DNA of 64,000 nt from a virus (taxonomy: Duplodnaviria; Caudoviricetes): IMG/VR virus record IMGVR_UViG_3300028886_000035, positions 160,001 through 224,000 of that record. One strand, written 5' to 3'. The translations under genes were made by a program, and so were the position numbers. Below are positions 6,311 through 47,129 of this stretch, piece after piece. Each line of letters begins with the position of its first letter. Position 1 is the first letter of the stretch. The notes beneath the pieces were generated by a model. It had not been told where the DNA came from. It did no database searches and saw only the letters and a program-made list of their open reading frames with translations.

Positions 6311-6714
6311 CGGTGGGTTCAACATTAAAACCCCTTTAAAATAGCCTAAAATCTTCATTAAAAATTGCACGGTTTTAGAATATGGTTTATTAAAAAATAC
6401 TAAGAAAAATAATTGTTTTGAAGTGGAAAATTTAATAAACTAATATAAAATTTAAAATAATTTAATTTGACAAGAAAAACCCCGTCCGAATGATAAAACA
6501 TTTTACAGAATTACAAGATATTCTGTCAAAATTGTAAAATGTTTTATCAAAAAGCGGTAAAAATTAAAATATAGATTGATTGACGTTAAAATTTGTTAAG
6601 AATATAAACAAAAAACGGTTAAATTGCCATGAAAACAAAAAAAATTAAAAAATTAGAACATTAAAAACAATAATTTCGTTAATAAAAACAATAAAATTTT
6701 TAATAAAAAAGTTA

Positions 6715-6743
6715 TTGACAAAATCACTAGTACATGATATACT
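6715..6743 (+). promoter_or_regulatory. sigma-A/70 promoter TTGACA-N17-TATACT with extended -10 TG
   Basis: consensus match upstream of the 6803 ORF. Confidence 0.85.
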
Positions 6744-6802
6744 ATATACAGAGTTAAGGGAAAGGACAATCGTCCGATAGTTCAAAACAGGAGGAATAAA
6801 AA

Positions 6803-7213
6803 ATGGAAACGATGAACGCACAGGTACAGGTCAATGTAGCTAACGAGCTTGCTATGGAGCTTGACAAAATCCGTAGCGCGAAAAAGGAACTCGCACGTCG
6901 CGAGAAGGAACTTATTTCTAAGTTCTATGAAGCAGGTATTCTGCATGATAACTACGAGCAGGAAGAAGTCACGACGGATAACGTCGTTATCCGCAAAATC
7001 CCTGCCTTGTCGGGCAAACGCTATGACGTAGACAAGGCGCGTGCGCTTGCAGATAGCCTTGCTATCAGTCGCAAAGAGCTTGTCAATCGTGAATGGAAAT
7101 TCACGGTCAACGAGGAAAAGCTAAACGAGCTTGTGAGTGAAGGGAAGATTAGCGAGGAAGTAAAAGATAGCCTTGCAATCAAGGCAAACCGCATTAAAGT
7201 AGACGTAAAATAA
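6803..7213 (+). CDS. hypothetical early protein
   Basis: 136 aa, AGGAGG RBS, own promoter and terminator. Confidence 0.85.
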   Translation: METMNAQVQVNVANELAMELDKIRSAKKELARREKELISKFYEAGILHDNYEQEEVTTDNVVIRKIPALSGKRYDVDKARALADSLAISRKELVNREWKFTVNEEKLNELVSEGKISEEVKDSLAIKANRIKVDVK

Positions 7214-7221
7214 TCCACCAA

Positions 7222-7258
7222 CAGGCAGGGAGAAAAACTCCCTGCCTTTATTTTTTTT
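7222..7258 (+). terminator. intrinsic terminator
   Basis: AGGCAGGGAG-AAAAA-CTCCCTGCCT plus T tract. Confidence 0.85.
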
Positions 7259-7457
7259 GTAATGTATTCTAATCAGATTTTAAGGTTGATTGACCATTTG
7301 TAAAATGTTTTATAATTATAAACTGAATTGAAATAAAACATTTTACAGTATATAACCGCCGCCGAGCTATACACTATTTTAGCGAATTGTAAAATGTTTT
7401 ATACATAGCGAGGTTTTTATGTATACATGTATACATAAAAAATCTTTTGATTTATGG

Positions 7458-7486
7458 TTGACAAGTAAATATAGGTGTGCTACAAT
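7458..7486 (+). promoter_or_regulatory. promoter TTGACA-N17-TACAAT
   Basis: consensus match. Confidence 0.8.
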
Positions 7487-7551
7487 ATACTTGTAAGGTT
7501 GATAGAGAGACACCTTACAGAAACGGTTTAAGTATATAGGAGGAAACAATC

Positions 7552-7827
7552 ATGGAAAACATGGAACTGAAACAGAACATTGTCAATGCTATTGAAACAC
7601 TTGAAGAAGTTGAAGGGATTTCTTTGGAGGTGTGTGGGTCATGGCTATGGGTTGATGGTGATACCAAGCCTGTAAAGGATTTGATTAAATCCGTAGGTGG
7701 TAGATGGGCAGCAAAGAAGAAAAAATGGTATATCCGTCCTGAAGGGGCTAAATGGTTTCATAGGAAAGAGCAGGACATGGAACGTATTCGTGAAGGATAC
7801 GGAAGTGTCATGGTAAAAGAAGTCTAA
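7552..7827 (+). CDS. conserved hypothetical protein (GSWLWV.G.T...G.RW..KKK.WY domain)
   Basis: 91 aa, AGGAGG RBS, promoter, terminator at 7839-7873. Confidence 0.85.
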   Translation: MENMELKQNIVNAIETLEEVEGISLEVCGSWLWVDGDTKPVKDLIKSVGGRWAAKKKKWYIRPEGAKWFHRKEQDMERIREGYGSVMVKEV

Positions 7828-8105
7828 AGACTTCATACAGGCAGGTGGAAAAATCCACCTGCTTTTATTTTTTGTAATGTATTCTAATCAGATTTTAAGG
7901 TTGATTGACCATTTGTAAAATGTTTTATTGTGAAAATTGATACAACAATAAAACATTTTACAAATATAGTTTATCTGTTTTTGTAAAATGTTTTATGATG
8001 TATAACTAGATGAATTTTTATAATATATTCTAATCTAATTTTAAAATTGATTGACAATGCGACAATTTTTTAATTAATCTTTTAGCAAAAAATATATAAA
8101 ACATA

Positions 8106-8134
8106 TTGACAAAAACAATATAGTAGTCTATAAT
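8106..8134 (+). promoter_or_regulatory. perfect promoter TTGACA-N17-TATAAT
   Basis: consensus match. Confidence 0.85.
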
Positions 8135-8182
8135 GTATAGTGTAAGGTCAAGGAACAGAGTAAAGTGATAGGAGGAATTGTC

Positions 8183-8374
8183 ATGAAGTACGTAGTGATT
8201 AAATTTAAAGAGATGCAGAAGATTCTGCGGAACAATGGGTATACCTTAGATAGATATAATGGAGACCATTATATCTATGTGAAAAGAGGTACTAATCATA
8301 TCTCTATTAATAGGGAACTTAATCCTATGGTCGCTAGGCGGTTGATTAAGGAGAACAATCTGATTGTTGAATAA
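8183..8374 (+). CDS. HicA-like protein (no adjacent HicB)
   Basis: 63 aa; KILRNNGY.LDR.NGDH.IY pattern resembles HicA L..GF...R.GSH; AGGAGG RBS. Confidence 0.65.
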   Translation: MKYVVIKFKEMQKILRNNGYTLDRYNGDHYIYVKRGTNHISINRELNPMVARRLIKENNLIVE

Positions 8375-8610
8375 AACAATCACAGAGGGCGAAAGCCCTC
8401 TTTTAATTTATCTTAAAATTTGATTAGACAAATTTTAAGATAAATTAGCTATTTGTAAAATGTTTTATAAAGTTATCAGTTTTCAAAATAAAACATTTTC
8501 CAATTTATTGGATAGGCAATTTTGTAATGTAAAATGTTTTATTACTCACGAATTGTACATAAACTATCTATATAATGAAAAAAAATTTTTTCAAAAAAAT
8601 AAAAAAAGTA

Positions 8611-8639
8611 TTGACAAACATATGCAGGTTTGATATACT
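8611..8639 (+). promoter_or_regulatory. promoter TTGACA-N17-TATACT
   Basis: consensus match. Confidence 0.8.
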
Positions 8640-8707
8640 TAAACTGTCGAAAGGCGATAGAGAGAAATCGCCTTTAGGGTTTATAAGATTTATGGAGGTA
8701 TACTATT

Positions 8708-9394
8708 ATGTTTACTGTTACTAACATTCTCACGGTCGCTTTTAATCAGATTGCCAAAAATGGCTATATCAAAAAGACAGTCGTTGATGGGGAACGTTGG
8801 GTGCGCCGTTATGGTCGTAACACGCTCGTTCCGAATTATGTAGAGCAGGAGGGAAACACCTGCCGTGCTACGTTGAATGCACTCAAAGCAGGTGATGTAT
8901 CGTCTGATGAGACACTTGCGCAATCGTGCATTAGCACGTATCGTGCGTTTGTGGAGAAGAATCCAAATGATTTTGGGGAGCGTATGCTTTCCCTGCTTGC
9001 CAAAAGCGAACTTGACGAAGCAGATGTAATGCAGGTAGCTTTTGTACCTGTATTCTACTTCAAACAGAAAAAGCACGATGAAGCCATTCGTGCTCGTGAA
9101 GAAGAACGCAAGGAATTCAACAATAGCCTTGCAGGTGGTTTCTTTGCAGAAGTAGGTGAGAAAATTAGTACGTCCGTTACCCTTATCAAACAGGGTGGTT
9201 TTGATGGCGCGTATGGATACACACATATCTATACATTCCTTTCGGAAGATAAACACGTTCTCGTGTGGTTTAGCACGAAAGATATTGATGTAGAAGTCGG
9301 TCAAATTGTCAATATTTGTGGTACAGTCAAAGGTCACAAAGAGTATAATGGTACGAAGCAGACCATTATCACTCGTTGCAAGGTTAGCGAATAA
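8708..9394 (+). CDS. hypothetical protein with probable C-terminal OB fold
   Basis: 228 aa; C-terminal beta-rich GTVKGHKEYNGTKQTIITRCK pattern; GGAGG RBS. Confidence 0.75.
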   Translation: MFTVTNILTVAFNQIAKNGYIKKTVVDGERWVRRYGRNTLVPNYVEQEGNTCRATLNALKAGDVSSDETLAQSCISTYRAFVEKNPNDFGERMLSLLAKSELDEADVMQVAFVPVFYFKQKKHDEAIRAREEERKEFNNSLAGGFFAEVGEKISTSVTLIKQGGFDGAYGYTHIYTFLSEDKHVLVWFSTKDIDVEVGQIVNICGTVKGHKEYNGTKQTIITRCKVSE

Positions 9395-9841
9395 CCTTGC
9401 AAGAAGTTAGAGGGTTGAAAAAACCCTCTTTTTTTTTGTGTCTAAAATCGTTTCTAAGCGCGTTTAATTAGCAAGGGTATATAATCATACCTGTTTTGAT
9501 TTTTAGACAGTCAGAAACGATTTTAGCGTGTGTGAGCGTGATATATAGCACGTAGTTTATCCACCATCAGACACGATGGATTGATTCGATAAAAACATTA
9601 TGTATATTTACATAAAACATTTTACAATTTGCATAAAACAGTTTTTTTGTAAAATGTTTTATTTACGATAACTGCTACGGTTTGTAAAATGTTTTATCTA
9701 TTCACACCTGCCAAAAAAATTTTCAATTTTTATAAAAAACCTATTGACAAAAGCCTGTAAAAGAGTATAATAATAAGTGTCAAGGGGATAGAGAAACCCA
9801 AGACAAACGGTTCAAAGGTGATTGAAAGGATTGTGATTACA

Positions 9842-10549
9842 ATGGCACTCAAAAGATTTACCTATGAAAATAAGGTTATGACGAAAATGCTCCATGAAGT
9901 TCTTACGGACGCGAAAAACGTCGGAATTGACTTTATCAAATTGGCGGAATTGCCAATTGATTTGAAGGTGTATCGCTCTAGTTGCGGTCGCCGCGCTATC
10001 GCTATGGCATTTAAGACATTCGATAAAGAGTGTCACCGCAAGATGTTTAAAATCGTCTTTTCAGATGAATATGCAAAGAAACTTACAGGCCAGCATGGTA
10101 AAACCGTTCTCATGCACGAATTGGTTCACACATTGCCAAAATGCTTTAATCACGGCATGGAATTTAAGGCATGGGCAAGAAAAATCAATCGTCTCCTGCC
10201 AGGCTACAATGTTGATACTTCCTGCCGGGGGGAGGAATGGGAAGCGGTTTGTGAAATCATGGATGGGAAACGAATTGATGAACCGCGAAAGGTTATCAAA
10301 AATGAGCCTGTAAAACCAATTGAGCGTAAATTCGATAATGGGATGAGAACCTTTATCGGTTCGATTACAATGAAAAATGGTAAGGTTAAAGTCGTTGCGT
10401 TGAAAAACGCGCTTATCAAATGGATTGACGCAAAAGAATTTGAAAAAGCACGTCAAGCGAAAATGATTGCGCCTAGCGCGTTTGAGCAAGCTATGAATAT
10501 GGCAGGTATGAAGAAACGTGCAAAAGCGTTTGCCAATTACAAAGGATAA
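9842..10549 (+). CDS. SprT-like zinc metalloprotease
   Basis: TVLMHELVH...NHG.EFK.W motif; GAAAGGA RBS before ATG 9842. Confidence 0.75.
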   Translation: MALKRFTYENKVMTKMLHEVLTDAKNVGIDFIKLAELPIDLKVYRSSCGRRAIAMAFKTFDKECHRKMFKIVFSDEYAKKLTGQHGKTVLMHELVHTLPKCFNHGMEFKAWARKINRLLPGYNVDTSCRGEEWEAVCEIMDGKRIDEPRKVIKNEPVKPIERKFDNGMRTFIGSITMKNGKVKVVALKNALIKWIDAKEFEKARQAKMIAPSAFEQAMNMAGMKKRAKAFANYKG

Positions 10550-10913
10550 TGACGAAAGGAAGGGAATAAAATCCCTTCCTTTTTTGTTTTCTATACTATC
10601 AGAAATCATCTCTAGCAGGTGTTTATCTATGATTAGGTATTCTGATACCTGTTAGCATTTTGAAATGACATACAAACAAAATAGGATGTAATAATCATTG
10701 TTACAAAATTGTGCAAGATAAAACATTTTACATTTTATGATTATGGATTGAAAATTTGTAAAATGTTTTATCTTTGATTGCATACGCATATAGTATACAT
10801 TTTTAGAAAAAGTTTTTTCTTGTATACATATAAAAACTATTGACATTGATACTAAAAAGAGTATAATAGTAAGTGTCAAAGGGAAATGGTTCAAACAAAT
10901 GGAGGTTTTAGAA

Positions 10914-10991
10914 ATGGAGTATGCAATCGGTTATATGGCATTTGCTATCGTTGTTTGTAGAACATGGAATGACTTTGTGAATATATTCTAA
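10914..10991 (+). CDS. 25-aa hydrophobic peptide MEYAIGYMAFAIVVCRTWNDFVNIF
   Basis: own TTGACA/TATAAT promoter (10840-10868) and GGAGG RBS; below the ORF-track size cutoff. Confidence 0.6.
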   Translation: MEYAIGYMAFAIVVCRTWNDFVNIF

Positions 10992-11157
10992 AATCCGTTC
11001 ACAAAAAAATCACCAAGCGATAAAAAAGTGCTTGACATTCTTCTCAAAGCGAGTATAATATAAAGTGTAAGGAACAAGAGAAAATGGATGATGCAATTGT
11101 AATTCTCAACAACTATATAAGAACAAAAATTAGAAGAAAACTAAGGAAGGAAAAATT

Positions 11158-11559
11158 ATGTTTGAGCAAAGAAAAAATATTCGAGATTTTGTAAATCGAC
11201 TTATAGAAGGTTTCCCAGAAAGCAAAAATCCTAAATGGAGATATATTTTATTCTTTAAAGATTCTATTAATGGCTTTGCATTTTCAGCACCTTATCTTGA
11301 CAAAAGAGAATGTCATGGACGAGTTATTCTTAACATCCCTCAAATATCGAATCTTTGTAAAGGAGACGGGAAAAGATTTGCTAGTTTTTTATTAATGAAC
11401 TTGTACCATGAAACACAACACACATATCAATTTGATTATATGAAAGAAAACAAATTAGATATAAGAAATTGTTTACTAAAACATCAAGAAAAATTAGAAA
11501 AACAAGCTATTGAAGCTATGAATAATCTAAAATATGATTTTGATTTTTCATATCTTTAA
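11158..11559 (+). CDS. HExxH-containing hypothetical protein (possible zincin)
   Basis: LYHETQH motif with a downstream E; promoter at 11032-11060. Confidence 0.7.
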   Translation: MFEQRKNIRDFVNRLIEGFPESKNPKWRYILFFKDSINGFAFSAPYLDKRECHGRVILNIPQISNLCKGDGKRFASFLLMNLYHETQHTYQFDYMKENKLDIRNCLLKHQEKLEKQAIEAMNNLKYDFDFSYL

Positions 11560-11849
11560 TTTGAGGGAAAATGTTTACTGTAATAAGTACGGTTCTGCCA
11601 GAACAGATACATTAGGGGATGAGAAATCATCCCCTAATTTTATTGTCTAATTTTTATATAAGGTAATTTTAATCTAGGTTGATTGACTTTAATTTATTTT
11701 TAATTATTGAAATGTTGTAAAATGTTTTATCTTAATTCATCAATAAAAATTTTTCAAAAAAATATACAAAACATGTTGACAAATAATTTACATAGTGCTA
11801 TACTATATTTGTAAGGTTGATAGAGATAAAATAAATGGAGGTAATCATT

Positions 11850-12083
11850 ATGGTACTGACAGAAAAAGATGTATGGGATATTTTAGAACATGGTCGAATT
11901 CGTAATATGCCCGAAAAGACGTTTATTGGAGGTCTTACTCAACCCGATGGACAATCGTTTCCGATTGATGTATTAGACACAGGATGGGCAGGTTGCCGTT
12001 TTCATTTAGAAACTGAATTATTGAAAGCGTTAGGTGGTATTGAATTTTGGTTAGTTATTGATAAGGGAAATTGGGAGGAGTGA
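11850..12083 (+). CDS. hypothetical protein
   Basis: GGAGG RBS, promoter at ~11776, terminator at ~12091-12118. Confidence 0.8.
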   Translation: MVLTEKDVWDILEHGRIRNMPEKTFIGGLTQPDGQSFPIDVLDTGWAGCRFHLETELLKALGGIEFWLVIDKGNWEE

Positions 12084-13792: not shown

Positions 13793-13809
13793 TTTATAAA
13801 ACCTCCATA

Positions 13810-14534: not shown

Positions 14535-14769
14535 CCTAATCATGTCCTTTCTTTTGATGGGTTGTTTTTCAATTTCTGTATTTATTATAGCGCACAATTC
14601 GCAATTTGTCAATAGGTTTTTTATATTTTTTGATAAATTTAACCGAATAAAATGTGATAAATATTCGTATAAAACATTTTACAAAAATTGTTTGTATGTG
14701 GATTGTAAAATGTTTTATTTTAATATGCAAATAAAAAGGACGGATATTCAATATCCGTCCCAAAGAGGA

Positions 14770-17780: not shown

Positions 17781-17977
17781 TTTGAAAACCTCCTATTAAC
17801 GAACCATTTCCTTAACTCTGATATTAGTATAGCATGTATTGATATATTTGTCAATAACTTTTTTATATTTTTTTTTGATAATAAAACATTTTACAAAAAA
17901 CACATAAAACGCAATAATGTAAAATGTTTTATGATAATATATCAAAAAAAGAGGAATTTAATTATCCCTCCTGTTGG

Positions 17978-34070: not shown

Positions 34071-34317
34071 TTTGTGTTCCTCCATTTTCTCTAGTGAACT
34101 GTATCTCTTAACTGTCTATATAATACCATATCACACAATCATTGTCAATACTTTTTATATAAAAATTTTTCTTGATTTTGTGCTTTTAAGTTGATTGACT
34201 TTTTACCATAAAACATTTTACAAAAAAATTTTTAGTACCTGTTATAAAGTTTGACTTTTTGACTATTTAATCAATGGAAAAAGGAAAAAGAGTATTTAAT
34301 ATAAAGAGGTAATAATA

Positions 34318-34722
34318 ATGTTTGGTTTAATTCCTTTTGAAAACAAAGAAATGGATAGTATTTTTAATGATGGATTTTTTGATGGATTTAAGTTTCCACA
34401 AGTACATCAAGATATGAAATGTGACGTAGAAGATACAGAAAAGTCATATATTGTTACTGCGGAGGTTGCAGGTTTTGACAAGAATGATATTAAAGTATCA
34501 ACTAAGGATGACGTTCTGACAATTGCAGTTGAACACAAGGAAGATACAAAGGATGATAAGAAGTATCTTTGTCACGAAAGAAGTTATAGCAAGGTGTCAC
34601 GTAGCTTTAGACTTCCTAACATGAACAAGCAGGATATTAAAGCTAATTTGAAAGATGGTATTTTAACCATTACTGTTAATAAGGACGAAAAACAGGAAGA
34701 TAAGTATATCGCTATTGAATAA
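34318..34722 (+). CDS. small heat shock protein (Hsp20/alpha-crystallin)
   Basis: DV.D....Y.V.AE..G..K.DI, ERSY....RSF.LP, A.LKDG.LTI. Confidence 0.92.
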   Translation: MFGLIPFENKEMDSIFNDGFFDGFKFPQVHQDMKCDVEDTEKSYIVTAEVAGFDKNDIKVSTKDDVLTIAVEHKEDTKDDKKYLCHERSYSKVSRSFRLPNMNKQDIKANLKDGILTITVNKDEKQEDKYIAIE

Positions 34723-34869
34723 TTAGATATAATAAAAAAGAATAGTACATATAATAAAACTGTTATGATTTATAAAAGAGACTTGCAAAAAAGTCTCTTT
34801 TTTGTTATACTATCAACGTAGAATATTTTTATTCTATGTGTTTTATTATAACAATGAGGTGATGTAATC

Positions 34870-35118
34870 ATGGTTAATTTAATAGAGCAATCTCACAAGC
34901 GTTTGAGTTTGAGAGAGTGCGGAGGTTTAGCAAAGATAGCACAGAAATATCATGCAAGTATTAAGGTTTATAATGATAACAATTCTGCCAATGCAAAAAG
35001 TATATTAAGTGTTTTAGACTTATGTATTTTACCGAATCAAATATTGGTAATTAACATTAGTGGAGTAGATGAACGACCAGCATTTAATGAAATTAAAAAG
35101 TATTTACGCGAATTATAA
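34870..35118 (+). CDS. HPr/Crh-like protein lacking His15
   Basis: NAKSIL.VL.L (Ser46 motif) and G.DE..A; the His15 position is Ser. Confidence 0.8.
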   Translation: MVNLIEQSHKRLSLRECGGLAKIAQKYHASIKVYNDNNSANAKSILSVLDLCILPNQILVINISGVDERPAFNEIKKYLREL

Positions 35119-35364
35119 TTAAATAAAACGTAAACGGATAATGTGAAAACACATTATCCATGAATGGAAAGTGTATGCAAGATAGGCATATTTTTTTTAT
35201 GCCTTTTTCACAATGTAAAATGTCTTATCTAATTTTTTACATAAAACATTTTACACTATGAAAAAAGAAGTAGTTTTTAATATGCGCAGGAAAAACAGGA
35301 TTTTTGAATTATACGCTTTTATTTCATTTATATAAAAAACTATTCAAACAAGGGTGATTTGAAA

Positions 35365-35637
35365 ATGATAAATGGAATAAAGGAGGTATTAGAAGCCTCT
35401 AAAGAAATTTGGCGTGAAGATTATATGGATGTGTTTTATAATATGAAAGATAAAAAAGTTTTCTATGTTATAAAACCGTTGAAAGATGTATCAAAACATT
35501 TTTATAACATACGTGAATTTGTTAATATCAATACAGTATTTGTTACGAGCATTTATTCAAATTATAAATTCAATGAAACCATTTTAGAAAATTTGGTTAA
35601 TAAAGCAGTAGCAGATTTTATAAATATACACAAATAA
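35365..35637 (+). CDS. hypothetical protein
   Basis: AAGGGTG RBS; resembles 17463-17780. Confidence 0.7.
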   Translation: MINGIKEVLEASKEIWREDYMDVFYNMKDKKVFYVIKPLKDVSKHFYNIREFVNINTVFVTSIYSNYKFNETILENLVNKAVADFINIHK

Positions 35638-35676
35638 AACATATAAATAAAAGAGACTAGATAGCTAGTCTCTTTT

Positions 35677-36072
35677 TTATAATCCGCTATATAGTGTAAT
35701 AGGTAAAATTACTTTATGATAGAATAGTTTTTTATATCCATCAATGCAATCTTTTGCGTCATTTTCTTTTTCAAAACGTATTTTTTTATTCATATAATCA
35801 TACGTCCCATTATATTTTCTTATTCTATTATCTGTTCTGTGTTCAGAAACAATGTTATATCTACAAATATTTATCCCGAATAATATATCAATGTCAATGT
35901 AATAAGATATATCATCTTTCTTATAAATAAGGAAGGGATATGTCATTGATGTATACATAAGATATTTTATTATGCGTTTTCTAAAAATGTCTTTTTCTTG
36001 TTCTGTATATGTTTTCCATTTTGTATGTTTCGTATTTTTCTTTACATAGTACTCGATGGTATATCTTTTCAT
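35677..36072 (-). CDS. hypothetical protein (ends ...SGL)
   Basis: 131 aa, GGGGA RBS. Confidence 0.7.
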   Translation of the reverse strand: MKRYTIEYYVKKNTKHTKWKTYTEQEKDIFRKRIIKYLMYTSMTYPFLIYKKDDISYYIDIDILFGINICRYNIVSEHRTDNRIRKYNGTYDYMNKKIRFEKENDAKDCIDGYKKLFYHKVILPITLYSGL

Positions 36073-36147
36073 AGTTATCCCCCAATACCATTATAACAAA
36101 AATGATTTGATATAAAAAGAGGGAATATATTTTCCCTCTCCTACTCG

Positions 36148-40066: not shown

Positions 40067-41296
40067 TCACGTTAAATCTTTTGTTTTTTGTAAATATGTT
40101 TCTATTTCGTTCATAGTTATATATCTACCTGCTTTTGTTTTTATCAAACTAATAGGCATATGATTTTTCAAATTAAACATATATCCTTGATATTCTTTTG
40201 GTACTAATTTTTGTACTGACTTCCCATAATCAGATTTATTATTTATATTCTTCACTATATCATAATATCTATATATCATATCACGTTTTATACGCATATA
40301 TGTATATATTTTTTCTGCTTTTTCATTCAAAACAGTATGATATACAGTAGGAACTTTAGCCAACAAATCATCATAATAATCATCTGCTATAGCTTTAATA
40401 ATTGTTTTACTAGATGTTTCATCTGATAGTATATGACTTAATTCCAAATAATCAGTACACTTTAGTTTATATCTATGATTATCAATTGTGATAACCCAAC
40501 CCTCTTTATCCGAACCTTTGTAAGTATCACGATTACACATAACTTCATTGAATGATTTTGTATCTATTTGTGTCATAGGAATATGATACTTATCAGAAAA
40601 TTCTTTTTTAATATACTTATATCCATATTCTATTCCATTTGTGACATTACGTACACCAATCAGATAAATACCCTGTTGTGATTTATCATAGATAACTACA
40701 TGCCTATCATTCAATGAAATATATTCAAAAATGAATGTTTTATCAGGATTATTCATAATCATTTGTTTGTGATTATATGATAGCATAGTTTCTGCTTCTG
40801 CCAATCTAAAATTTTGTTCTTTATCTAATGACCCTGTACCACCTAACACAAAATGATTATCATAATATCTAACAGACAAAAGTGAACCATCTAGTTTATT
40901 TGTTATTTCTACATCTTTTGCATTTTTCAAATATGATTGAATTTTATCAATATATGTTTCTTCAATCTCGCCTATATTGAAAAATTTTCTAAATGGACAT
41001 AATACAATTGTATCTTTTTCTACATCTATTGTAAGACCACGCATTTCACGATAAATAGAATTTTCATTACGATATATATCATTGTCTCCACCTTTAATAA
41101 GTGAATATTTGAATAAATTATATGTTCCATACACAATGATATTTACGCATTTCAAAAAGTTATTATATTTATCTGTATTTAAATAGATACACATATCTTC
41201 TACACTATATGTATCTAGTTTATCTATTTGCTTTTTGTTCATATACTGATATTTTATCTTCATAACATAGTTATATGCTATATTCCAATCAAACAT
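40067..41296 (-). CDS. RNA ligase 1 (T4 Rnl1/RnlA-like)
   Basis: E.RGL, F.KFFN.GE, KLDGS (motif I), FEY, EGWV, YKLK motifs. Confidence 0.9.
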   Translation of the reverse strand: MFDWNIAYNYVMKIKYQYMNKKQIDKLDTYSVEDMCIYLNTDKYNNFLKCVNIIVYGTYNLFKYSLIKGGDNDIYRNENSIYREMRGLTIDVEKDTIVLCPFRKFFNIGEIEETYIDKIQSYLKNAKDVEITNKLDGSLLSVRYYDNHFVLGGTGSLDKEQNFRLAEAETMLSYNHKQMIMNNPDKTFIFEYISLNDRHVVIYDKSQQGIYLIGVRNVTNGIEYGYKYIKKEFSDKYHIPMTQIDTKSFNEVMCNRDTYKGSDKEGWVITIDNHRYKLKCTDYLELSHILSDETSSKTIIKAIADDYYDDLLAKVPTVYHTVLNEKAEKIYTYMRIKRDMIYRYYDIVKNINNKSDYGKSVQKLVPKEYQGYMFNLKNHMPISLIKTKAGRYITMNEIETYLQKTKDLT

Positions 41297-41458
41297 ATTG
41301 TATCACCACCATATACAATCATATCATTTATAGAAATATTTGTCAATCAAAATTTGTAAAATGTTTTATACCAAATCAAATTCCAAATCATAAAACATTT
41401 TACAAATATCATAAAATTAAAAAGGAAAGGTTTCCCCTTCCTTGTACTTTATCAACGC

Positions 41459-41968
41459 TCATAGTGTACTTTCGTGTACTTTCAGATTGTATTTCTCAAT
41501 CAGATTATCTGCTTTGTGTTTCCAAATTTCATGCAGATTATTTTCATAGATATAGATTGCAAGCGTCCCCTTAATCCCTTCATCATCTGCGCCCTTGCAA
41601 AGTGCAATCAACTTTTCTGCTTCATCAACAGACACAAGCAGGTGATTTGCAAGTGCTTTTACGTCATTATTTTTAATGAAGTATGCACCATTTTCCACCT
41701 CATACATTGGGCAACCGTCCACGTCACGAAGATGAAATTCAAATAAATCTGCAATAGCAGGGAACTTGCGTTCCGTATCATGAAGGCAAGCACCAAAGGA
41801 AACAGGATTAGCATAACGCTTATCACGTTTACCTTTTCTCGTGGCTTTCCATGTTTCATGCGTCACGGAAAAATACGGCTTCTGCTTTCCAATCTGATTA
41901 AGCTCTCCAAAAACAGTAATCAGATACCCATTGGAAATTTTGTTTGCGACCTCGTAATTGTTGAACAT
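41459..41968 (-). CDS. hypothetical protein (YFSVT...G.PMY.VENG.Y)
   Basis: 169 aa, RBS, promoter. Confidence 0.8.
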   Translation of the reverse strand: MFNNYEVANKISNGYLITVFGELNQIGKQKPYFSVTHETWKATRKGKRDKRYANPVSFGACLHDTERKFPAIADLFEFHLRDVDGCPMYEVENGAYFIKNNDVKALANHLLVSVDEAEKLIALCKGADDEGIKGTLAIYIYENNLHEIWKHKADNLIEKYNLKVHESTL

Positions 41969-42259
41969 TGTAATTACTTCCTTTCATACGTGAACCTTAT
42001 CTCTATGGTTATATATTACCACATCTTAGATACTTTGTCAAGAACTTTTTTATTTTTTCTTGGTTACTGTATCTATTGCCTTTCGACACTTATATAGTAA
42101 CACATATCAATATATTTGTCAATAGTTTTTGTATATTTTTTTTGAAAAGATTTTATTCGTATAAAACATTTTACAAAAATCAATATACACAAAATTGTAA
42201 AATGTTTTATACCAAATATTGTTTATCAAAAGAAGGAAGAACTATTTCTTCCTTCTTGC

Positions 42260-42634
42260 TTATTTTGTTTTAGACAAATTATCCCAAAAACTTTGTGACG
42301 GTTTAGCAGATGAAAGAATATAAATATCCAACCCTTCATTATTTCCAACACATTCAAATCCACTAGATTTATATAAATTAACTGCTACTGTATTGTCAGG
42401 TGCTACACACAAAGCATTTGCTCCTTTTTTCAAGCAATAATCAAATAATGTCCTGCCTAATCCTTGACCTCTAAATTGTGGTTCAATTTCTAAATTACCT
42501 ACCCATGTAAGATTATCAGATGAATATTTGTATAAATCTACTGTACCTAAATAAGTAGCCCCGTTATACATATTAATATTCGTTTTATTTCCTTCTTGTT
42601 CTTCTTCAAATTTGATATTAGCTAAACGTTTCAT
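42260..42634 (-). CDS. GNAT family N-acetyltransferase
   Basis: I.PQFRGQGLGR.L acetyl-CoA motif and N..A..LY...GF; AGGAG RBS. Confidence 0.88.
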   Translation of the reverse strand: MKRLANIKFEEEQEGNKTNINMYNGATYLGTVDLYKYSSDNLTWVGNLEIEPQFRGQGLGRTLFDYCLKKGANALCVAPDNTVAVNLYKSSGFECVGNNEGLDIYILSSAKPSQSFWDNLSKTK

Positions 42635-42724
42635 AATATTATCTCCTATATAAAACATTTTACATTATTATTATATCGGTATCTACCACTATTTATTATA
42701 TTTATAGAAGGGTGGAATACAATA

Positions 42725-43126
42725 ATGGATAATCCGTATGAAAAATTACAGCCTAAATCATTTACTCTATTGGCAGAACAACAAATAAATGATATTAATC
42801 ATAAAGGGATTATGGGTAAAAATCTATTTATCAAAACATGTATAAATAATATGTATGATTACATAGATGAATTTTATTTTGATTTGTTTACAAATCACAT
42901 AGACATATTTTATTTTATGACGGTTTACGATAATGGCAACGAAAATATTATTGACAAAAAATTAAGAGACATTATAACTAACACATTCATACAAAGTTAT
43001 TTGCATATTGTCAACAATAATTTATTAGATAAAAATATATTCAATCAGTCACTTATAAATAAAACAATCAAACAAGTTTTTGATAACCCTAGAAAAGTAA
43101 ATATGCTTTATAAAAAGAACAATTAA
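42725..43126 (+). CDS. hypothetical protein
   Basis: 133 aa, GGGTGG RBS. Confidence 0.7.
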   Translation: MDNPYEKLQPKSFTLLAEQQINDINHKGIMGKNLFIKTCINNMYDYIDEFYFDLFTNHIDIFYFMTVYDNGNENIIDKKLRDIITNTFIQSYLHIVNNNLLDKNIFNQSLINKTIKQVFDNPRKVNMLYKKNN

Positions 43127-43213
43127 ACCTTCTAAAATCGTTTGTATCACGTTTTAATCAACAAACAGATATAGTTATATACGTTACATAATTTAACTAT
43201 GCTACAATCGAAA

Positions 43214-43290
43214 TTTGACATCCTCCAACGACTGAAGTCGTTGGATTCCTAAGTGACTAACGTTTCTTGCTACCTCCACGGCAGTCTTAA
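43214..43290 (-). mobile_element. IS200/IS605 (TnpB-type) right-end remnant
   Basis: minus strand GGAATCCAACGACTTCAGTCGTTGGAGGATGTCAA: subterminal hairpin plus TCAA end; no tnpA or tnpB nearby. Confidence 0.7.
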
Positions 43291-43881
43291 TCATAAAGAA
43301 GCCCCTGCCTTTTTAAACTGGAAAAAAAGAATTCCACCTAAAGCATTTCCTAATACATTAGTTGCTAAGAAAGGAATATTAAAAGTTCCACACGCTGACA
43401 TAAAGAAAAAGTTTGCTACACAGTGTTCAAACCCACAAAATACAAAGACCGTAACGCAGAAAATTACAAGCAAAGAATTCTTTTGAGTTTTCCACTCATT
43501 GACAGCTAAGAAAATAAGAATATTACAAAAGATAGCTTTGCAAAATACCATCAATAAAGTTTCGGACAATTTATTTTGTAATATAGTCGAAACATTGCTT
43601 TCAATTCCACAACCAAGGAAAACTAAAGCACAAAGACCAATTCCAATAAAATTACCGAATAAAACCGTTGCATTATCCTTCAAACTTTTTAACGTAGGTG
43701 TAGAACTGCATACAAAACCTGTAAATAATTTAAAAGCATGAACACATACAGCTAAAAGACCTACTGAGAAAAGGACAGCCCCAATTAATTTATTAGGAGA
43801 CACAGCAAGAGAAATACACCCTATACCAATGCTCCAACCTGCCAAAAAAGAAGAATATATATAAGATTTAAATTCACTCAT
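43291..43881 (-). CDS. formate/nitrite transporter (FNT family)
   Basis: multi-TM; LFTG, GN..G, CN.L..LAV, F...GFEHCVAN, GN..GG signatures. Confidence 0.88.
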   Translation of the reverse strand: MSEFKSYIYSSFLAGWSIGIGCISLAVSPNKLIGAVLFSVGLLAVCVHAFKLFTGFVCSSTPTLKSLKDNATVLFGNFIGIGLCALVFLGCGIESNVSTILQNKLSETLLMVFCKAIFCNILIFLAVNEWKTQKNSLLVIFCVTVFVFCGFEHCVANFFFMSACGTFNIPFLATNVLGNALGGILFFQFKKAGASL

Positions 43882-43905
43882 GCCAATCACTCTTTCTAAC
43901 AAATA

Positions 43906-44406
43906 TTAACCTTCTAATATCTTATCAAAAAGGCAAACTTTTAATGGAATTTGAGAATAATATTCCCAATCATTCATCAGTCTATCAAATTCATCTGCCC
44001 ATTCAGAATATTTACGAATAATCAATAAAACAGGAACATTCTCTCGACAACTTTCCATAACAAATTCTTTTAAATCATCAATATCAACAAATTTATTCAA
44101 AATAGTCTCTGCGTTTCCACTAAAGAAAGTGCCATCATCTTTCATTACATAGAAATCATCATCATAAGAAAAATGCTCATTATCTTTAGAGTCAATAACT
44201 GGTCTAAAAATCTCTGCTTCTGCCTTAGAATAAATTTTCATCATATTTTCGTCTTTTTCAGCTTGAATATTATAAAGCTCTACAACAGCTTCTTTAGGAA
44301 AAGAATCAAATACTTCAGAAAACTTATCTGTATGAGCATCAATTTGTTTTGCTAAATTATTGGAGTAGTCAATTTCTTTTTTGTATTTCTCTTTTAAAAA
44401 GCCCAT
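43906..44406 (-). CDS. acidic hypothetical protein
   Basis: 166 aa, GAAAGGA RBS. Confidence 0.75.
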   Translation of the reverse strand: MGFLKEKYKKEIDYSNNLAKQIDAHTDKFSEVFDSFPKEAVVELYNIQAEKDENMMKIYSKAEAEIFRPVIDSKDNEHFSYDDDFYVMKDDGTFFSGNAETILNKFVDIDDLKEFVMESCRENVPVLLIIRKYSEWADEFDRLMNDWEYYSQIPLKVCLFDKILEG

Positions 44407-44422
44407 ATTTCAACTTCCTTTC

Positions 44423-44905
44423 TTAACGAAAATATTCAACATAATTATCAATAATATATTTTGTATCTTTATAAATCTCTTTATCAAACTTATTCACTAA
44501 AACAGTTGGTTCATTATCAGAAGGATTTTCCTTCCAATAATCAATGTCTATCCAATCCTCAAATTCTCCCCAAAAAGCATTATAATCTTTTGTTTTACCT
44601 CTGATATCTATAAAATTATCTTCTTCATCTATACAAAAAGAATGAATAAGGCTTTTTTCGTATGAATACACATTTACAATTTTATATCCAAACTGTTTAT
44701 GTAATCTTAATGCAAAAATATTGCAAAATCCATGAAGAAAATCATACAGACTTAATTTATTTTCAGAGTTTGGAATAAAACAAGGTTCTTTATCATTGTT
44801 AATAACAATAATATCTTCCAAAAAAGAAAAATCTGTATTTTTATTATCATTAAATATTACTGCCCCTTCACGATAAAAATCTTGTAATTCCATATCTTTG
44901 AACAT
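44423..44905 (-). CDS. hypothetical protein, possible Cys-His-Asp papain/transglutaminase-like fold
   Basis: G.C..FA..L, IHSF, DIRG. Confidence 0.65.
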   Translation of the reverse strand: MFKDMELQDFYREGAVIFNDNKNTDFSFLEDIIVINNDKEPCFIPNSENKLSLYDFLHGFCNIFALRLHKQFGYKIVNVYSYEKSLIHSFCIDEEDNFIDIRGKTKDYNAFWGEFEDWIDIDYWKENPSDNEPTVLVNKFDKEIYKDTKYIIDNYVEYFR

Positions 44906-45104
44906 TGTAACTCATTCCTTTCAATACTGTTTATCTCTATGGTTATAGAATATCACATATATAGCTTTTTGTAAAGATGTTTTTTATATATTTTTGAATT
45001 ACAAACTTTTGAATAAAACATTTTACAAAAGTACATTAAACAAAAATGCAAAATGTTTTATTTTTATATATCAAAATAGGCAGGATATTTCACCTGCCTA
45101 TTTT

Positions 45105-45632
45105 TTATTTCTTGATACGCTTACGATTTTTCAAACCGATACGAAATGAATAACCGTTATCCATAACATATTTCAAGTAGTCTCTTAATTCCTGTTCATT
45201 GTAAATACCTCTTACACAAATCTCTTTTGCAATCATACAATCTGTGTTATCTTTTTCATTATACATGATATAAAGCAAATTGCCTTTATCCACAAACTGT
45301 TTCACACTATCTTTAGCTCGTTTAACGCTATTCCACAAACCATTATAAAAGTCAATAACCTTAATGCTATCACTTGTATGACTTGTGAAAATCTGTGTAT
45401 CTTCTTCATCACCGAACCACTTATCACAAGTATTGACAAGATACTTGTGCCATTGTGCTACCGTCTTAACAGGTTTTTCACCATCGAAAGAAAACCATAA
45501 GCGTTCATAAACCTCCCTTCTTGTTGTATAATTAAACTCTGTACAATTCGATGAACCAATGCACCAAAGTAAAAGAACTTCATCGTTTGAAAGTTTAATG
45601 CCTACACGGTCATACATAATTGAATAACTCAT
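45105..45632 (-). CDS. hypothetical protein (GS.NC.E motif)
   Basis: GGGAGG RBS, promoter, terminator. Confidence 0.8.
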   Translation of the reverse strand: MSYSIMYDRVGIKLSNDEVLLLWCIGSSNCTEFNYTTRREVYERLWFSFDGEKPVKTVAQWHKYLVNTCDKWFGDEEDTQIFTSHTSDSIKVIDFYNGLWNSVKRAKDSVKQFVDKGNLLYIMYNEKDNTDCMIAKEICVRGIYNEQELRDYLKYVMDNGYSFRIGLKNRKRIKK

Positions 45633-45912
45633 TTCAATTACCTCCCAATCGAACCTGTGAACCTCTTTATGTTTATATATTATCACATCTTAGATACTTT
45701 GTCAAGAATTTTTTTATTTTATTTCTCTCAAAACATGTTTTGTTTCTATGGTTATATATTACCACATATATATAATATTGTCAACAATTTTTTTATATAA
45801 ATAGATATAATAAAACATTTTACAAACAAACTAGTTCCATTGAAAAAATGTAAAATGTTTTATATCAAAATCATTTAGTAAAGCGATAGGAAATTTCCTA
45901 TCGCTTTACCCA

Positions 45913-46278
45913 TCATATTTGTCTCATTCGTTTATCAACACTTTGCATACATTCAATCGCTTTTTGTCTGATTGATTTCTCATGACCTGTATAATAACGT
46001 TTCAACAATTTATCGTATTGCATACAAAAAAAGTCTTTTTCGTTACTAGTTAATGTCTCCACATCAAAATCAATCTGAACGTTTTTACCGAATTGCTTTC
46101 GCATAATATCAGTAAAGCTAGTTTGCATACCGAATTTGATAAACGTTTGTTCATCGAACAACATCGAACTTGCTCGTCGTTTTACATCTAAGCAATTTGC
46201 ATAGCAACAAACGATAACACTCTGCCCATTGTCGCTCAAGAACTTCAAAACTTGTTGACGAATATGCTTATTATCCAT
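45913..46278 (-). CDS. hypothetical protein (paralog of 46558-46911)
   Basis: shared V.KFL.DNG...IV..YAN.LD.KR, FD..TF, M...FG..V. Confidence 0.8.
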   Translation of the reverse strand: MDNKHIRQQVLKFLSDNGQSVIVCCYANCLDVKRRASSMLFDEQTFIKFGMQTSFTDIMRKQFGKNVQIDFDVETLTSNEKDFFCMQYDKLLKRYYTGHEKSIRQKAIECMQSVDKRMRQI

Positions 46279-46557
46279 AAGCACACCTCCTATTTAATTG
46301 TTAGAGAACTTATTCGGAACAATCTCTCCTGTTCCTTACATTGTACATGATAGCACGCTAGCTACATATTGTCAATGGAATTTGTATAATTCTAATATGC
46401 TTCTAATGATAAATTTTACAGATAAAACATTTTACAAAATATCAGTATCATTGAAAAAGTGTAAAATGTTTTATTCATTTTATAATTTTATCAGATAAAA
46501 CATTTTACAAAAAAAGCAATATAAAAATAGGGAATGAAAAATCATTCCCTATGATAA

Positions 46558-46911
46558 TTATGATATATTATCAATTTTTTTAATCAGTTCTTTTGCATCG
46601 TTGATAACATGACTTTTATCATTATCAAAATACTTTTGTCTTAATTGTTCATACCTAAATTTCAATGTAGCATATTGAACATCATACTTACCATCATTAA
46701 AACATTCTTGCATAAATTGTGTTTCTACTTGTCTACCAAATTTACGTTTCATTGTAGAAATGAAATATTGTTGCATAGCCATATTAACAAAAGTATCGTT
46801 ATCAAATTTAAGCATTTTCTTTCGTTTCAAATCTAAGTAGTTTGCATATCCACCAACAATTAATTTTTCCCCATTATCATTGAGAAACTTAATAACTTCA
46901 TCTTTAAGCAT
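46558..46911 (-). CDS. hypothetical protein (paralog of 45913-46278)
   Basis: same motifs; GGGAGG RBS. Confidence 0.8.
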   Translation of the reverse strand: MLKDEVIKFLNDNGEKLIVGGYANYLDLKRKKMLKFDNDTFVNMAMQQYFISTMKRKFGRQVETQFMQECFNDGKYDVQYATLKFRYEQLRQKYFDNDKSHVINDAKELIKKIDNIS

Positions 46912-47129
46912 ACAAATTACCTCCCTATTAAACCTACTATGATTTTATCAAAAATCCATATATATGTCAAGATAATTTTTTTGTAAAATGTTTTATGTTA
47001 TACTTCTATATAAAACATTTTACAAATTGTTGTTTTGACCTTTTTTTGTAAAATGTTTTATTATATGGCATATGATAATTATTATCAATAATACAATAAA
47101 AGTATATCTTTGAGCAATATTAAAAACTG

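What the first reader, a model, noticed from the sequence alone, without database searches (positions are those of the whole stretch)
6493..47061. A 40-kb array of self-contained gene units punctuated by ~75 copies of one 15-bp motif
Seen: almost every gap between a terminator and the next promoter holds 1-3 copies of ATAAAACATTTTACA or its reverse complement. The units share one grammar: motif(s), TTGACA-N17-TAtAaT, purine-rich leader, GGAGG, small ORF, hairpin terminator. The motif stays out of coding regions apart from two gene ends, starts at 6493 (two outliers near 1.1 kb), stops at 47061 and was not seen in the last 17 kb. Established: SPO1 and T5 early regions have many strong host-type promoters, and mycobacteriophage stoperators are dispersed repressor sites. 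Inference: the motif marks a functional domain of the genome. It could be operators for a global early-gene shut-off, sites for a DNA-organising, protection or injection protein, or recombination sites of an integron-like cassette system. No cognate protein is recognisable in this window.
Basis: partly seen in the sequence, partly recalled or inferred. Interest (0 to 1): 0.92.

Follow-up and report, generated by a model that had tools for sequence, protein, structure and literature searches.

The report
Invariant box between phage early genes
A 281-kb uncultured giant phage related to Bacillus phage G separates about 45 small self-contained accessory genes with 1-3 copies of one invariant 15-letter DNA word. 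The word is kept by selection and sits in helical register with the next promoter, so it is most likely the docking site of an unidentified regulator, a familiar logic in a new form.

Summary
Observation confirmed. ATAAAACATTTTACA occurs 77 times in the window (up to 2 mismatches; 2.7 expected). All 68 exact copies in the 281-kb genome lie at window 1057-47061. The copies fill the gaps between an intrinsic terminator and the next TTGACA-N17-TATAAT promoter, as 13 singles, 23 pairs and 6 triplets; 33 of 35 neighbouring copies are inverted.

The word is not a mobile repeat: its flanks carry no information. It is not a promoter: 63 of 68 copies lack a -10. In natural variants of this phage it is 98% conserved where other intergenic DNA is 74% conserved.

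New here: the promoter-proximal copy lies at distances from the -35 that recur every 10.5 bp (Rayleigh p 2e-6, repeated in variant contigs). The distal copy is not phased and sits 8-16 bp behind the upstream terminator.

Units are gained, lost and reshuffled between variants, with junctions in the word or in the shared promoter/leader, as with T4 PeSL cassettes. The genome has no integrase, resolvase or rve transposase, and units have no target duplications.

Best reading (0.5): operator-like sites of an unidentified sequence-specific protein that acts on RNA polymerase at these promoters. No binder is shown. This is a new variant of known kinds (PeSL cassettes, dispersed operators). The scan has noted similar terminator-box-promoter cassettes in other large phages.

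The parts
6493..47061 (.). Motif-punctuated domain: about 45 autonomous units (sigma-A-type promoter, leader/RBS, small ORF, intrinsic terminator) holding 41 motif clusters
1057..1137 (-). Outlier cluster: two same-orientation copies (one exact, one with 1 mismatch) in the 3' end and 3' flank of ORF 1115-1444, upstream of the hairpin at 997-1025
6493..6547 (.). First convergent pair (+-), inside the 1.3-kb non-coding divergent region 5430-6800
7299..7402 (.). Triplet (-+-). The copy at 7299 plus TAAAAT 16 bp on forms a complete minus-strand promoter. The same holds at 7914-7996 and 8454-8542
14669..14718 (.). Typical pair on the minus-strand array. In transcription order: terminator 14760-14730, 11 bp, distal copy, 20-bp spacer, proximal copy, 56 bp, then the -35 of promoter 14612-14584
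17826..17854 (-). Example promoter (TTGACA-N17-TATACT) with an A-tract UP-like region. The proximal motif copy at 17881-17895 lies 26 bp upstream of the -35
42176..42646 (-). GNAT acetyltransferase unit, present here but absent from variant contigs L221 and L226. The junction there is a single motif copy, so the difference lies between the direct copies at 42161 and 42650
34176..36084 (+). Plus-strand island (HSP20, HPr, a 92-aa ORF) that is inverted relative to its neighbours in variant contigs L214 and L215. One end lies at the motif copy 34208-34222
46982..47061 (.). Last cluster (triplet -+-), marking the right border of the domain

Best explanation
The 15-17-bp word ATAAAACATTTTACA(AA) is a protein-binding cis-element, that is, an operator or upstream regulatory site. 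It belongs to one class of about 40 host-sigma-A-dependent promoters that drive the phage's accessory or early gene units.

The copy nearest each promoter almost always reads TGTAAAATGTTTTAT toward the promoter. It lies on a fixed face of the helix relative to the -35. The bound protein would therefore touch or wrap RNA polymerase at that promoter, probably through the alpha C-terminal domains across the phased A-tract UP region, and so control the whole class together.

These promoters are already near-consensus and carry UP-like A-tracts. I therefore think coordinated shut-off (over-stabilisation or occlusion from upstream, as phi29 p4 does at promoter A2c) is more likely than activation.

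The second, inverted copy lies 19-25 bp further upstream and 8-16 bp behind the previous terminator. It would give cooperative binding and make the element a boundary between units.

Shown: the anatomy, the selection on the word, the helical phasing and the restriction to one domain. Inferred: that a protein binds, which protein it is (phage-encoded is favoured, host-encoded is possible), and the sign of the effect.

The repeated word together with the shared promoter and leader also acts as micro-homology for PeSL-type cassette shuffling. I read that as a consequence, not the primary role.
For: (1) Sharp, invariant site. 68 copies are exact. Flank information content is near zero except A at +16 (79%) and +17 (60%), so this is neither a duplicated segment nor a MITE.

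(2) Purifying selection. In alignments with natural variants at 60-80% identity, motif positions are 97.9% conserved. Other intergenic DNA is 73.7% conserved, CDS 74.9% and -35 hexamers 96%. Variant contigs hold 127 exact copies among about 150 hits.

(3) Helical phasing. Gaps between the proximal copy and the -35 cluster at 14-15, 24-28, 33-38, 44-47, 53-59 and 68 bp. A Rayleigh scan over periods of 5-20 bp peaks at 10.5 bp (R 0.68, p 2.3e-6), and 0 of 5000 random sets reach that value. The result repeats in non-identical units of variant contigs (R 0.64, best period 10.25-10.5). The distal copy is not phased (R 0.28, p 0.25), which serves as an internal control.

(4) Orientation. The proximal copy is in one orientation in 36 of 44 cases, and 10 of 13 singles share it.

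(5) Restriction to one class. Strong sigma-A promoters outside the domain lack the word.

(6) Not a promoter. Only 5 of 68 copies have a -10-like hexamer 16-18 bp downstream.

(7) Lineage-specific. The paired word is absent from all other IMG/VR contigs and from 185,579 GTDB genomes. It is found only in rumen-type metagenome contigs that are variants of this same region.
Against: No binding protein is identified. The genome has no match to HTH_3, HTH_17, HTH_19, RHH_1, KilA-N, HU, AbrB/MazE, ParB or phi29 GP4. Pfam and PHROGs find no DNA-binding domain in about 60 domain proteins tested.

The sites lie upstream of the UP region rather than over the -35 or -10, which is unusual for a simple repressor.

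Complete invariance over 15 bp in 68 copies is stricter than in most regulons.

The phasing could partly reflect phased A-tract modules of a paralogous promoter family, so the units are not fully independent.

The word resembles the UP-proximal plus -35 block (AAAACTATTTACA) of promoters in related phages. RNA polymerase itself could therefore be the binder.
Confidence: 0.5

Rival explanations
1. Half-promoter or RNA polymerase docking site with no dedicated protein. The word would be a relic or derivative of the clade's UP-proximal plus -35 block. Host RNA polymerase (sigma region 4 and/or the alpha C-terminal domains) would bind it directly. It would then act as a phased upstream enhancer, as an RNA polymerase reservoir, or as a capture site for polymerase released at the adjacent terminator.
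For: The word ends in TTTACA preceded by an A-tract. In relative G003, AAAACTATTTACA, which differs only by a swapped central dinucleotide, is the -35 region of promoters followed by N17-TATAAT. 66 of 68 consensus -10 promoters in G003 use TTTACA. The same word follows gene direction in G004 and in phage G.

Three copies in this window (7299, 7914, 8454) do have TAAAAT 16 bp downstream and so form full promoters.

Helical phasing with the real promoter fits contact by the alpha C-terminal domains.
Against: Real promoters here keep only the hexamers and loose A-tracts, whereas all 15 positions of the word are fixed. That is more than polymerase contacts require.

The proximal copy points its TTTACA away from the promoter.

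Strong promoters outside the domain work without the word.

63 of 68 copies cannot open DNA because they lack a -10.
Confidence: 0.15
2. Recombination sites as the primary function. The word would be the crossover point of a cassette capture and shuffling system that builds the array. This would be PeSL-like if driven by homology, or would depend on a new site-specific enzyme.
For: Variants differ by whole units. 28% of homology-block ends lie within 30 bp of a copy, against 10% of random positions.

About 7 of 18 junctions lie in or within 15 bp of a copy. One is a clean copy-to-copy difference that removes the GNAT unit.

Domain genes are compositionally foreign. Their mean GC is 32.9% (up to 46%), against 27.8% elsewhere and 26% in the intergenic scaffold. 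They include host-like HSP20, HPr, GNAT and a formate/nitrite-transporter-like gene.

Most units are bracketed by inverted copies that start TGT and end ACA.
Against: Junctions fall equally in the shared leader and promoter, as expected from general homologous recombination.

There is no Phage_integrase, Resolvase or rve match.

The one Y1 transposase belongs to an IS200/IS605-type element 140 kb away, with its own GC-rich end hairpins.

There are no target-site duplications (0 of 16 at k of 4 or more).

A pure recombination role does not explain the helical phasing with the -35 or the orientation bias of single copies. BLAST extension through an identical word also inflates the apparent junction enrichment.
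Confidence: 0.12
3. Architectural or insulator element. Each unit is bracketed by inverted copies, one ahead of the promoter and one behind the terminator. A bridging protein would close each unit, or the inter-unit junction, into a topological domain. That would block read-through and the spread of supercoiling between strongly transcribed neighbours, in the way gyrase- and IHF-bound BIME/REP elements sit at operon ends.
For: The distal copy sits 8-16 bp after the terminator T-run in 14 of 23 measured cases.

Orientation alternates almost strictly along the array.

The F-R spacer stays within the narrow range 19-25 bp although its sequence is free.

The domain is packed with strong promoters and terminators.
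Against: There is no evidence for a bridging protein. 13 clusters have only one copy. Phasing with the promoter points to polymerase contact rather than a pure barrier. Similar dense promoter-terminator stretches elsewhere in the genome lack the word.
Confidence: 0.1
4. Single-strand or RNA hairpin element. Convergent pairs would fold into a 16-18-bp stem in ssDNA or in read-through RNA. They would then serve as an attC-like or HUH-enzyme substrate, an RNase III site, a back-up terminator, or the target of a guide RNA.
For: Pairs fold as ssDNA at -11.5 to -14.2 kcal/mol, with z-scores of -4.4 to -7.9.

The genome encodes a Y1 HUH transposase.

The two outlier copies at 1057 and 1123 lie inside a transcript's 3' end, and could in principle supply a complementary RNA.
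Against: 13 of 42 clusters are singles and 6 are triplets.

Loops are 18-25 nt and the stems are perfect, with none of the bulges typical of attC sites.

The elements lie after intrinsic terminators, so they are rarely transcribed.

No integron integrase is present.

The ends of the Y1 element are unrelated GC-rich hairpins.

There is no Rfam match in the window.

No exact copy exists outside the array that could act as a guide.
Confidence: 0.05

Closest known systems
PeSL (promoter-early stem-loop) regulatory cassettes in the hyperplastic regions of T4-type phages (Arbiol et al. 2010, PMC2839356; Comeau et al. 2014, PMC4122927)
   Same: Both have blocks of non-essential, mostly ORFan genes. 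In both, each gene is flanked by a composite of a terminator stem-loop, an AT-rich region and a strong host sigma-70-type early promoter. In both, insertions, deletions and replacements between close relatives have their junctions in these repeated cassettes.
   Different: [quoted passage not shown] It occurs in inverted pairs and is helically phased with the -35. The phage is a phage-G-like jumbo myovirus with Firmicute-style signals. Mini-circle formation was not tested.
Stoperators of Cluster A mycobacteriophages (L5 gp71-type immunity repressor; PMC9283540, PMC6550527)
   Same: Both involve dozens of near-identical copies of an asymmetric 13-15-bp site in intergenic DNA of one phage. Both are lineage-specific and strongly conserved, and both give one protein control over many units.
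   Different: Stoperators are spread over the whole genome, keep one orientation relative to transcription, and stop elongation in a temperate phage with a known repressor. Here the sites fill only 16% of the genome and come in inverted pairs. They lie behind terminators and upstream of promoters. No repressor or integrase is recognisable.
Upstream, face-of-helix regulators of strong Bacillus-phage promoters: phi29 protein p4 at A2c and A3 (p4 sites and host Spo0A boxes near the early promoters: PMC2731898; the p4 mechanism is from my own knowledge), and CRP acting at a distance through the alpha C-terminal domain (PMC3445967)
   Same: Both have a binding site upstream of the core promoter whose effect depends on helical phase and on the strength of the promoter. 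Both are AT-rich inverted elements.
   Different: There is no p4 homologue (PF05464 search negative). phi29 has about four sites rather than about 75. The site sequence and spacing differ.
REP/BIME elements and REPINs with their RAYT transposases
   Same: Both are short extragenic repeats at the 3' ends of transcription units, often as inverted doublets able to form hairpins. A Y1 (IS200-like) transposase gene exists in this genome.
   Different: Each REP is itself an imperfect palindrome and is transcribed, and REPIN spacers are copied together with the repeats. Here the single word is not a palindrome and the spacers are unrelated. The elements follow the terminators. The Y1 gene sits in an ordinary IS200/IS605-type element with GC-rich hairpin ends, far from the array.
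Integron gene-cassette arrays (attC sites and the IntI integrase)
   Same: Both are tandem arrays of single-gene units of foreign composition, separated by inverted-repeat elements.
   Different: There is no IntI or any tyrosine recombinase. The cassettes carry their own promoters and terminators. The stems are perfect and of fixed sequence, unlike the structure-defined attC. Single and triple copies also occur.

Membership tests
PeSL-type regulatory cassette array | Composite of a stem-loop terminator, an AT-rich region and a consensus sigma-70-type early promoter, repeated between non-essential genes in a hyperplastic region | tested here: met
   32 near-consensus promoters with A-tract upstream regions and dense intrinsic terminators lie at window 6.4-47 kb. 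Most genes are ORFans.
PeSL-type regulatory cassette array | Indel and replacement junctions between close relatives fall inside the repeated cassettes | tested here: met
   Junctions lie in the motif, the shared leader or the promoter. One example is the GNAT unit, which is removed between two direct copies.
PeSL-type regulatory cassette array | Recombination between cassettes yields excised mini-circles | not testable with these tools
   This needs inverse PCR or long reads from infected cells.
Stoperator/immunity-repressor system | Many copies of one asymmetric 13-14-bp site | tested here: met
   68 exact copies of an asymmetric 15-mer.
Stoperator/immunity-repressor system | Sites dispersed over the genome and in one orientation relative to transcription | tested here: not met
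   All copies lie in 46 kb of a 281-kb genome. The strand split is 40 forward to 40 reverse, and 33 of 35 neighbouring copies are inverted.
Stoperator/immunity-repressor system | Cognate HTH repressor and a temperate lifestyle (integrase) | tested here: not met
   No HTH_3, HTH_17, HTH_19 or Phage_integrase match in the genome.
Integron | IntI-type tyrosine recombinase | tested here: not met
   PF00589 search of the whole genome found no match, while the control rang in 14 of 14 genomes.
Integron | attC sites (imperfect hairpins with extrahelical bases) following promoterless cassettes | tested here: not met
   The stems are perfect and of fixed sequence. 13 clusters are single copies. Each unit has its own promoter.
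REPIN/RAYT | RAYT gene flanked by the repeats, each repeat an imperfect palindrome, and doublets copied as a unit | tested here: not met
   A Y1_Tnp gene is present at genome 23.5 kb but is flanked by unrelated GC-rich hairpins. The word is not a palindrome, and spacers and flanks carry no information.
DDE transposon / MITE | Terminal inverted repeats with target-site duplications, plus a transposase | tested here: not met
   R...F brackets exist, but 0 of 16 units have identical flanks at k of 4 or more. There is no rve match. Other DDE families were not searched.
Sigma-A (sigma-70-type) promoter | A -35 hexamer followed at 16-18 bp by a -10 hexamer | tested here: not met
   Only 5 of 68 copies have a -10-like hexamer, and no downstream position carries information. 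In relative G003 the sister word does meet this test.
Known RNA family | Match to an Rfam covariance model | tested here: not met
   No match at gathering score anywhere in the window.

The most novel reading that the evidence does not exclude
The word is the docking site of a new kind of phage protein with no recognisable DNA-binding family. The protein would bind an asymmetric 15-17-bp site and, through the inverted copies that bracket every unit, tie each terminator to the next (or its own) promoter. The result would be an array of insulated, polymerase-recycling gene loops that also serves as the landing pad through which foreign genes are captured. This would be a cassette platform that needs no integrase.
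Probability: 0.1. Interest if true: 0.85.

Novelty: new variant of a known kind. Interest (0 to 1): 0.55.

Why it matters
Large phages keep their fast-evolving accessory genes in blocks of autonomous units. How such blocks are regulated together, and how they gain genes, is known in outline only for T4-type phages (PeSLs) and, for dispersed operators, for mycobacteriophages.

This case adds three things:
- a very clean example of about 75 invariant sites;
- direct evidence of selection from natural variants;
- a measurable helical-phase rule that links the site to the promoter.

The phase rule makes the regulatory hypothesis testable with simple reporter constructs, even though the host is uncultured. 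The sister word in phage G and its relatives is part of the promoter itself. That suggests an evolutionary route by which a promoter block becomes a separate operator. If a binder is found, it would be a compact, highly specific DNA-binding module with a ready-made set of about 40 responsive promoters.

Tried and rejected
(1) A scan of IMG/VR for the single 15-mer returned only chance single hits. The paired pattern found nothing in IMG/VR or in GTDB genomes.

(2) Relatives found through the tail sheath:
- G001 and G002 cover only the structural half and have no repeated words.
- G005 has none.
- G003, G004 and phage G have the promoter word instead.

(4) Search for a binder.
- Whole-genome family searches were negative for Phage_integrase, Resolvase, rve, HTH_3, HTH_17, HTH_19, RHH_1, KilA-N, HU, AbrB/MazE, ParB and phi29 GP4.
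- Pfam and PHROGs scans of about 60 domain and flank proteins gave no DNA-binding domain.
- The 120-aa HTH candidate folds as two helical domains (pLDDT 85). Its PDB matches are all weak (E above 1) and are only to generic HTH domains. Nothing links it to the word.

(5) Transposon reading: no target-site duplications.

(6) IS200/IS605 link: that element has its own GC-rich hairpin ends.

(7) Palindrome ATGGT-N8-ACCAT over the -10 as the real operator: only 4 perfect copies exist, so it is not general.

(8) Known host sites recalled from memory do not match the word. I checked CodY, cre, the Spo0A box, the TnrA, ComK and NrdR boxes, dif, IHF and parS. This was not a database test.

(9) No Rfam family matches.

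Full report
**What the window is.** The window is bases 160,001-224,000 of a 281,186-bp IMG/VR virus record estimated 98% complete. The genome encodes a tail sheath, a large terminase and an NAD-ligase. Its tail sheath is 43% identical to that of Bacillus phage G, the closest cultured relative. Closer uncultured relatives exist in IMG/VR. Earlier notes of this scan place the genome in cattle rumen; I did not test that.

- ATAAAACATTTTACA has 77 matches with up to 2 mismatches, against 2.7 expected.
- All 68 exact copies in the genome lie at window 1057-47061, and the strand split is 40:40.
- My own scan confirms the unit grammar: TTGACA-N17-TATAAT, leader with GGAGG, small ORF, hairpin terminator, word(s), next promoter.
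- 38 of 52 intergenic gaps in the domain carry the word, against 5 of 132 elsewhere.
- There are 42 clusters: 13 singles, 23 pairs and 6 triplets. 33 of 35 neighbouring copies are inverted, and start-to-start spacing is mostly 34-40 bp.

**What the word is not.**
- It is not a duplicated segment or a MITE. Positions outside the 15-mer carry no information, except A at +16 (79%) and +17 (60%), and the spacers are unrelated.
- It is not a promoter. Only 5 of 68 copies have a -10-like hexamer at 16-18 bp.
- It is not a known RNA family.
- Pairs can fold as single strands, but singles, triplets, 18-25-nt loops and the position behind terminators argue against a hairpin role.
- Units are bracketed by inverted copies (TGT...ACA), but there are no target-site duplications and no rve transposase.
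- The genome has no tyrosine or serine recombinase.
- It does have an IS200/IS605-type Y1 transposase at 23.5 kb. That element has its own GC-rich end hairpins and lies 140 kb from the array.

**Selection.** A scan of JGI metagenomes for the paired word found 16 loci on seven contigs. These are natural variants of this same region, 66-99% identical and mosaic. They carry 127 exact copies among about 150 hits. In alignments of 60-80% identity the word is 97.9% conserved. Other intergenic DNA is 73.7% conserved, coding DNA 74.9% and -35 hexamers 96%. BLAST anchoring on identical words may inflate this somewhat, but the contrast is large.

**Coupling to the promoter (new).**
- The gap between the promoter-proximal copy and the -35 falls in classes of 14-15, 24-28, 33-38, 44-47, 53-59 and 68 bp.
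- A Rayleigh scan of periods from 5 to 20 bp peaks at exactly 10.5 bp (R 0.68, p 2.3e-6). No set among 5000 random gap sets reaches that value.
- Non-identical units in the variant contigs give the same result (R 0.64 at 10.25-10.5 bp). Many of those units are orthologous, so this is not independent evidence.
- The distal copy shows no phasing (R 0.28, p 0.25). It lies instead 8-16 bp behind the T-run of the upstream terminator in 14 of 23 measurable cases.
- The proximal copy reads TGTAAAATGTTTTAT toward the promoter in 36 of 44 cases, and 10 of 13 singles have that orientation.
- Sequences within a gap class differ, so the classes are not simple duplicates. The intervening DNA does contain phased A-tracts, which could carry part of the signal.

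**Relation to relatives.**
- In the 504-kb relative G003 the most over-represented word is AAAACTATTTACA. It differs from ours by a swapped central dinucleotide.
- There it is the UP-proximal plus -35 block of promoters, followed by N17-TATAAT. 66 of 68 consensus -10 promoters in G003 use TTTACA, whereas this phage uses TTGACA in 30 of 38.
- G004 and phage G carry the same promoter word, following gene direction.
- In this window, three copies in the plus-strand block (7299, 7914, 8454) are completed by a TAAAAT hexamer 16 bp downstream into minus-strand promoters. At 7299 and 7914 that hexamer lies just beyond a second repeat, GGTTGATTGAC.
- I infer that our word descends from, or shares a binder with, the clade's promoter block. 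That inference supports the rival reading in which RNA polymerase itself docks on the word.

**Cassette dynamics.**
- Variants differ by whole units, by duplications and by one inversion.
- Homology-block ends lie within 30 bp of a copy in 28% of cases, against 10% for random positions.
- Of 18 close junctions, about 7 lie in or within 15 bp of a copy. One is a clean copy-to-copy difference that removes the GNAT unit (window 42176-42646). Four or five others lie in the shared promoter or leader.
- Domain genes are richer in GC (mean 32.9%, up to 46%) than the rest of the genome (27.8%) and than the intergenic scaffold (26%). They include host-like HSP20, HPr, GNAT, a formate/nitrite-transporter-like gene, RNA ligase, two SprT-like genes and a HicA-like gene.
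- This is the PeSL picture described in PMC2839356 and PMC4122927. Recombination at the word is real, but it is not specific to the word.

**Search for a binder.**
- No classical regulator family is present.
- The recognisable transcription proteins are three: a 219-aa sigma factor beside the terminase, a NusG paralogue, and next to it a 120-aa protein with a weak C-terminal HTH.
- The NusG/HTH pair is conserved in G003.
- The 120-aa protein models as two helical domains joined by a linker (pLDDT 85). Its only PDB matches are weak and generic HTH hits.
- It is a lead, not evidence.

**Verdict.** I commit to the operator or upstream-regulatory-site reading at 0.5, with shut-off favoured over activation because the promoters are already strong. 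The rivals are direct polymerase docking (0.15), recombination as the primary role (0.12), an insulator or loop architecture (0.10) and a hairpin or RNA role (0.05).

The feature is a new variant of known kinds: PeSL cassettes plus dispersed operators such as stoperators (PMC9283540). Notes from this scan describe comparable terminator-box-promoter cassettes in other large phages, so the theme recurs. What is particular here is the invariance, the inverted-pair layout and the 10.5-bp phase rule.

Noticed in passing
window 6574, 7284, 7899, 11677, 12758, 13250, 34189 (all + strand): A second repeat, (ttctaat..gattttaa)GGTTGATTGAC, lies just before motif copies in the plus-strand block. At 7299 and 7914 a TAAAAT hexamer just beyond it (16 bp from the motif's TTTACA) makes that TTTACA the -35 of a minus-strand promoter, antisense to the upstream gene. 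The copy at 8454 has a like-placed TAAAAT but no copy of this repeat.
   Followed up: partly
window 17230, 19171, 19500, 20429, 27954, 28760, 36616, 37619, 42012, 44946, 45755 and others: About 17 domain promoters share the initial transcribed sequence ATAACCATAGAG, often followed by AACAGGTT(CTAC). Relative G003 has 22 copies. Four copies form a perfect palindrome ATGGTTATATATTACCAT across the -10. This may be a leader RNA element or a second operator.
   Followed up: partly
L124:6650-9200 (genome 21.6-24.2 kb): An IS200/IS605-type element lies inside the phage. It has a Y1 transposase (158 aa, E 7e-36), an adjacent 536-aa ORF with no Pfam match, and GC-rich end hairpins (cccacggg...cccgtggg and ccccacagg...cctgtgggg).
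   Followed up: partly
L136:10537-11544 (genome 255.5-256.5 kb): A NusG paralogue (167 aa, PF02357 E 5e-11) lies next to a 120-aa two-domain protein with a weak HTH. The pair is conserved in relative G003 (45-48% identity). It may be a phage antitermination or regulation module.
   Followed up: partly
window 34176-36084: The plus-strand island carrying HSP20, HPr and a 92-aa ORF is inverted relative to its neighbours in variant contigs L214 and L215.
   Followed up: partly
window 34318-35118, 42260-42634, 43291-43902, 40067-41296: Host-like auxiliary genes sit in the array: HSP20, the PTS phosphocarrier HPr, a GNAT acetyltransferase, a formate/nitrite-transporter-like membrane protein and a T4 Rnl1-type RNA ligase.
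   Followed up: no
G003 (L176-L201) compared with this genome: Promoters with a consensus -10 use TTTACA as the -35 in 66 of 68 cases in G003, but TTGACA in 30 of 38 cases here. This is a clade-level switch of the preferred -35 hexamer.
   Followed up: partly
window 1057-1137: The two outlier copies share one orientation. They lie in the 3' end and 3' flank of ORF 1115-1444, upstream of a hairpin, so unlike the array copies they are probably transcribed.
   Followed up: no
window 5430-6800: A 1.3-kb AT-rich non-coding stretch lies between divergent transcription units at the left border of the domain. It holds the first motif pair. Whether it is an origin or a control region was not examined.
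   Followed up: no
L129:11173-12506 (genome 101.2-102.5 kb): A 219-aa sigma-70-family factor (region 4, E 8e-10) lies next to a DNA methyltransferase-like ORF and the large terminase. It is conserved in G001, G002, G003 and G005, and is presumably the late sigma factor.
   Followed up: partly
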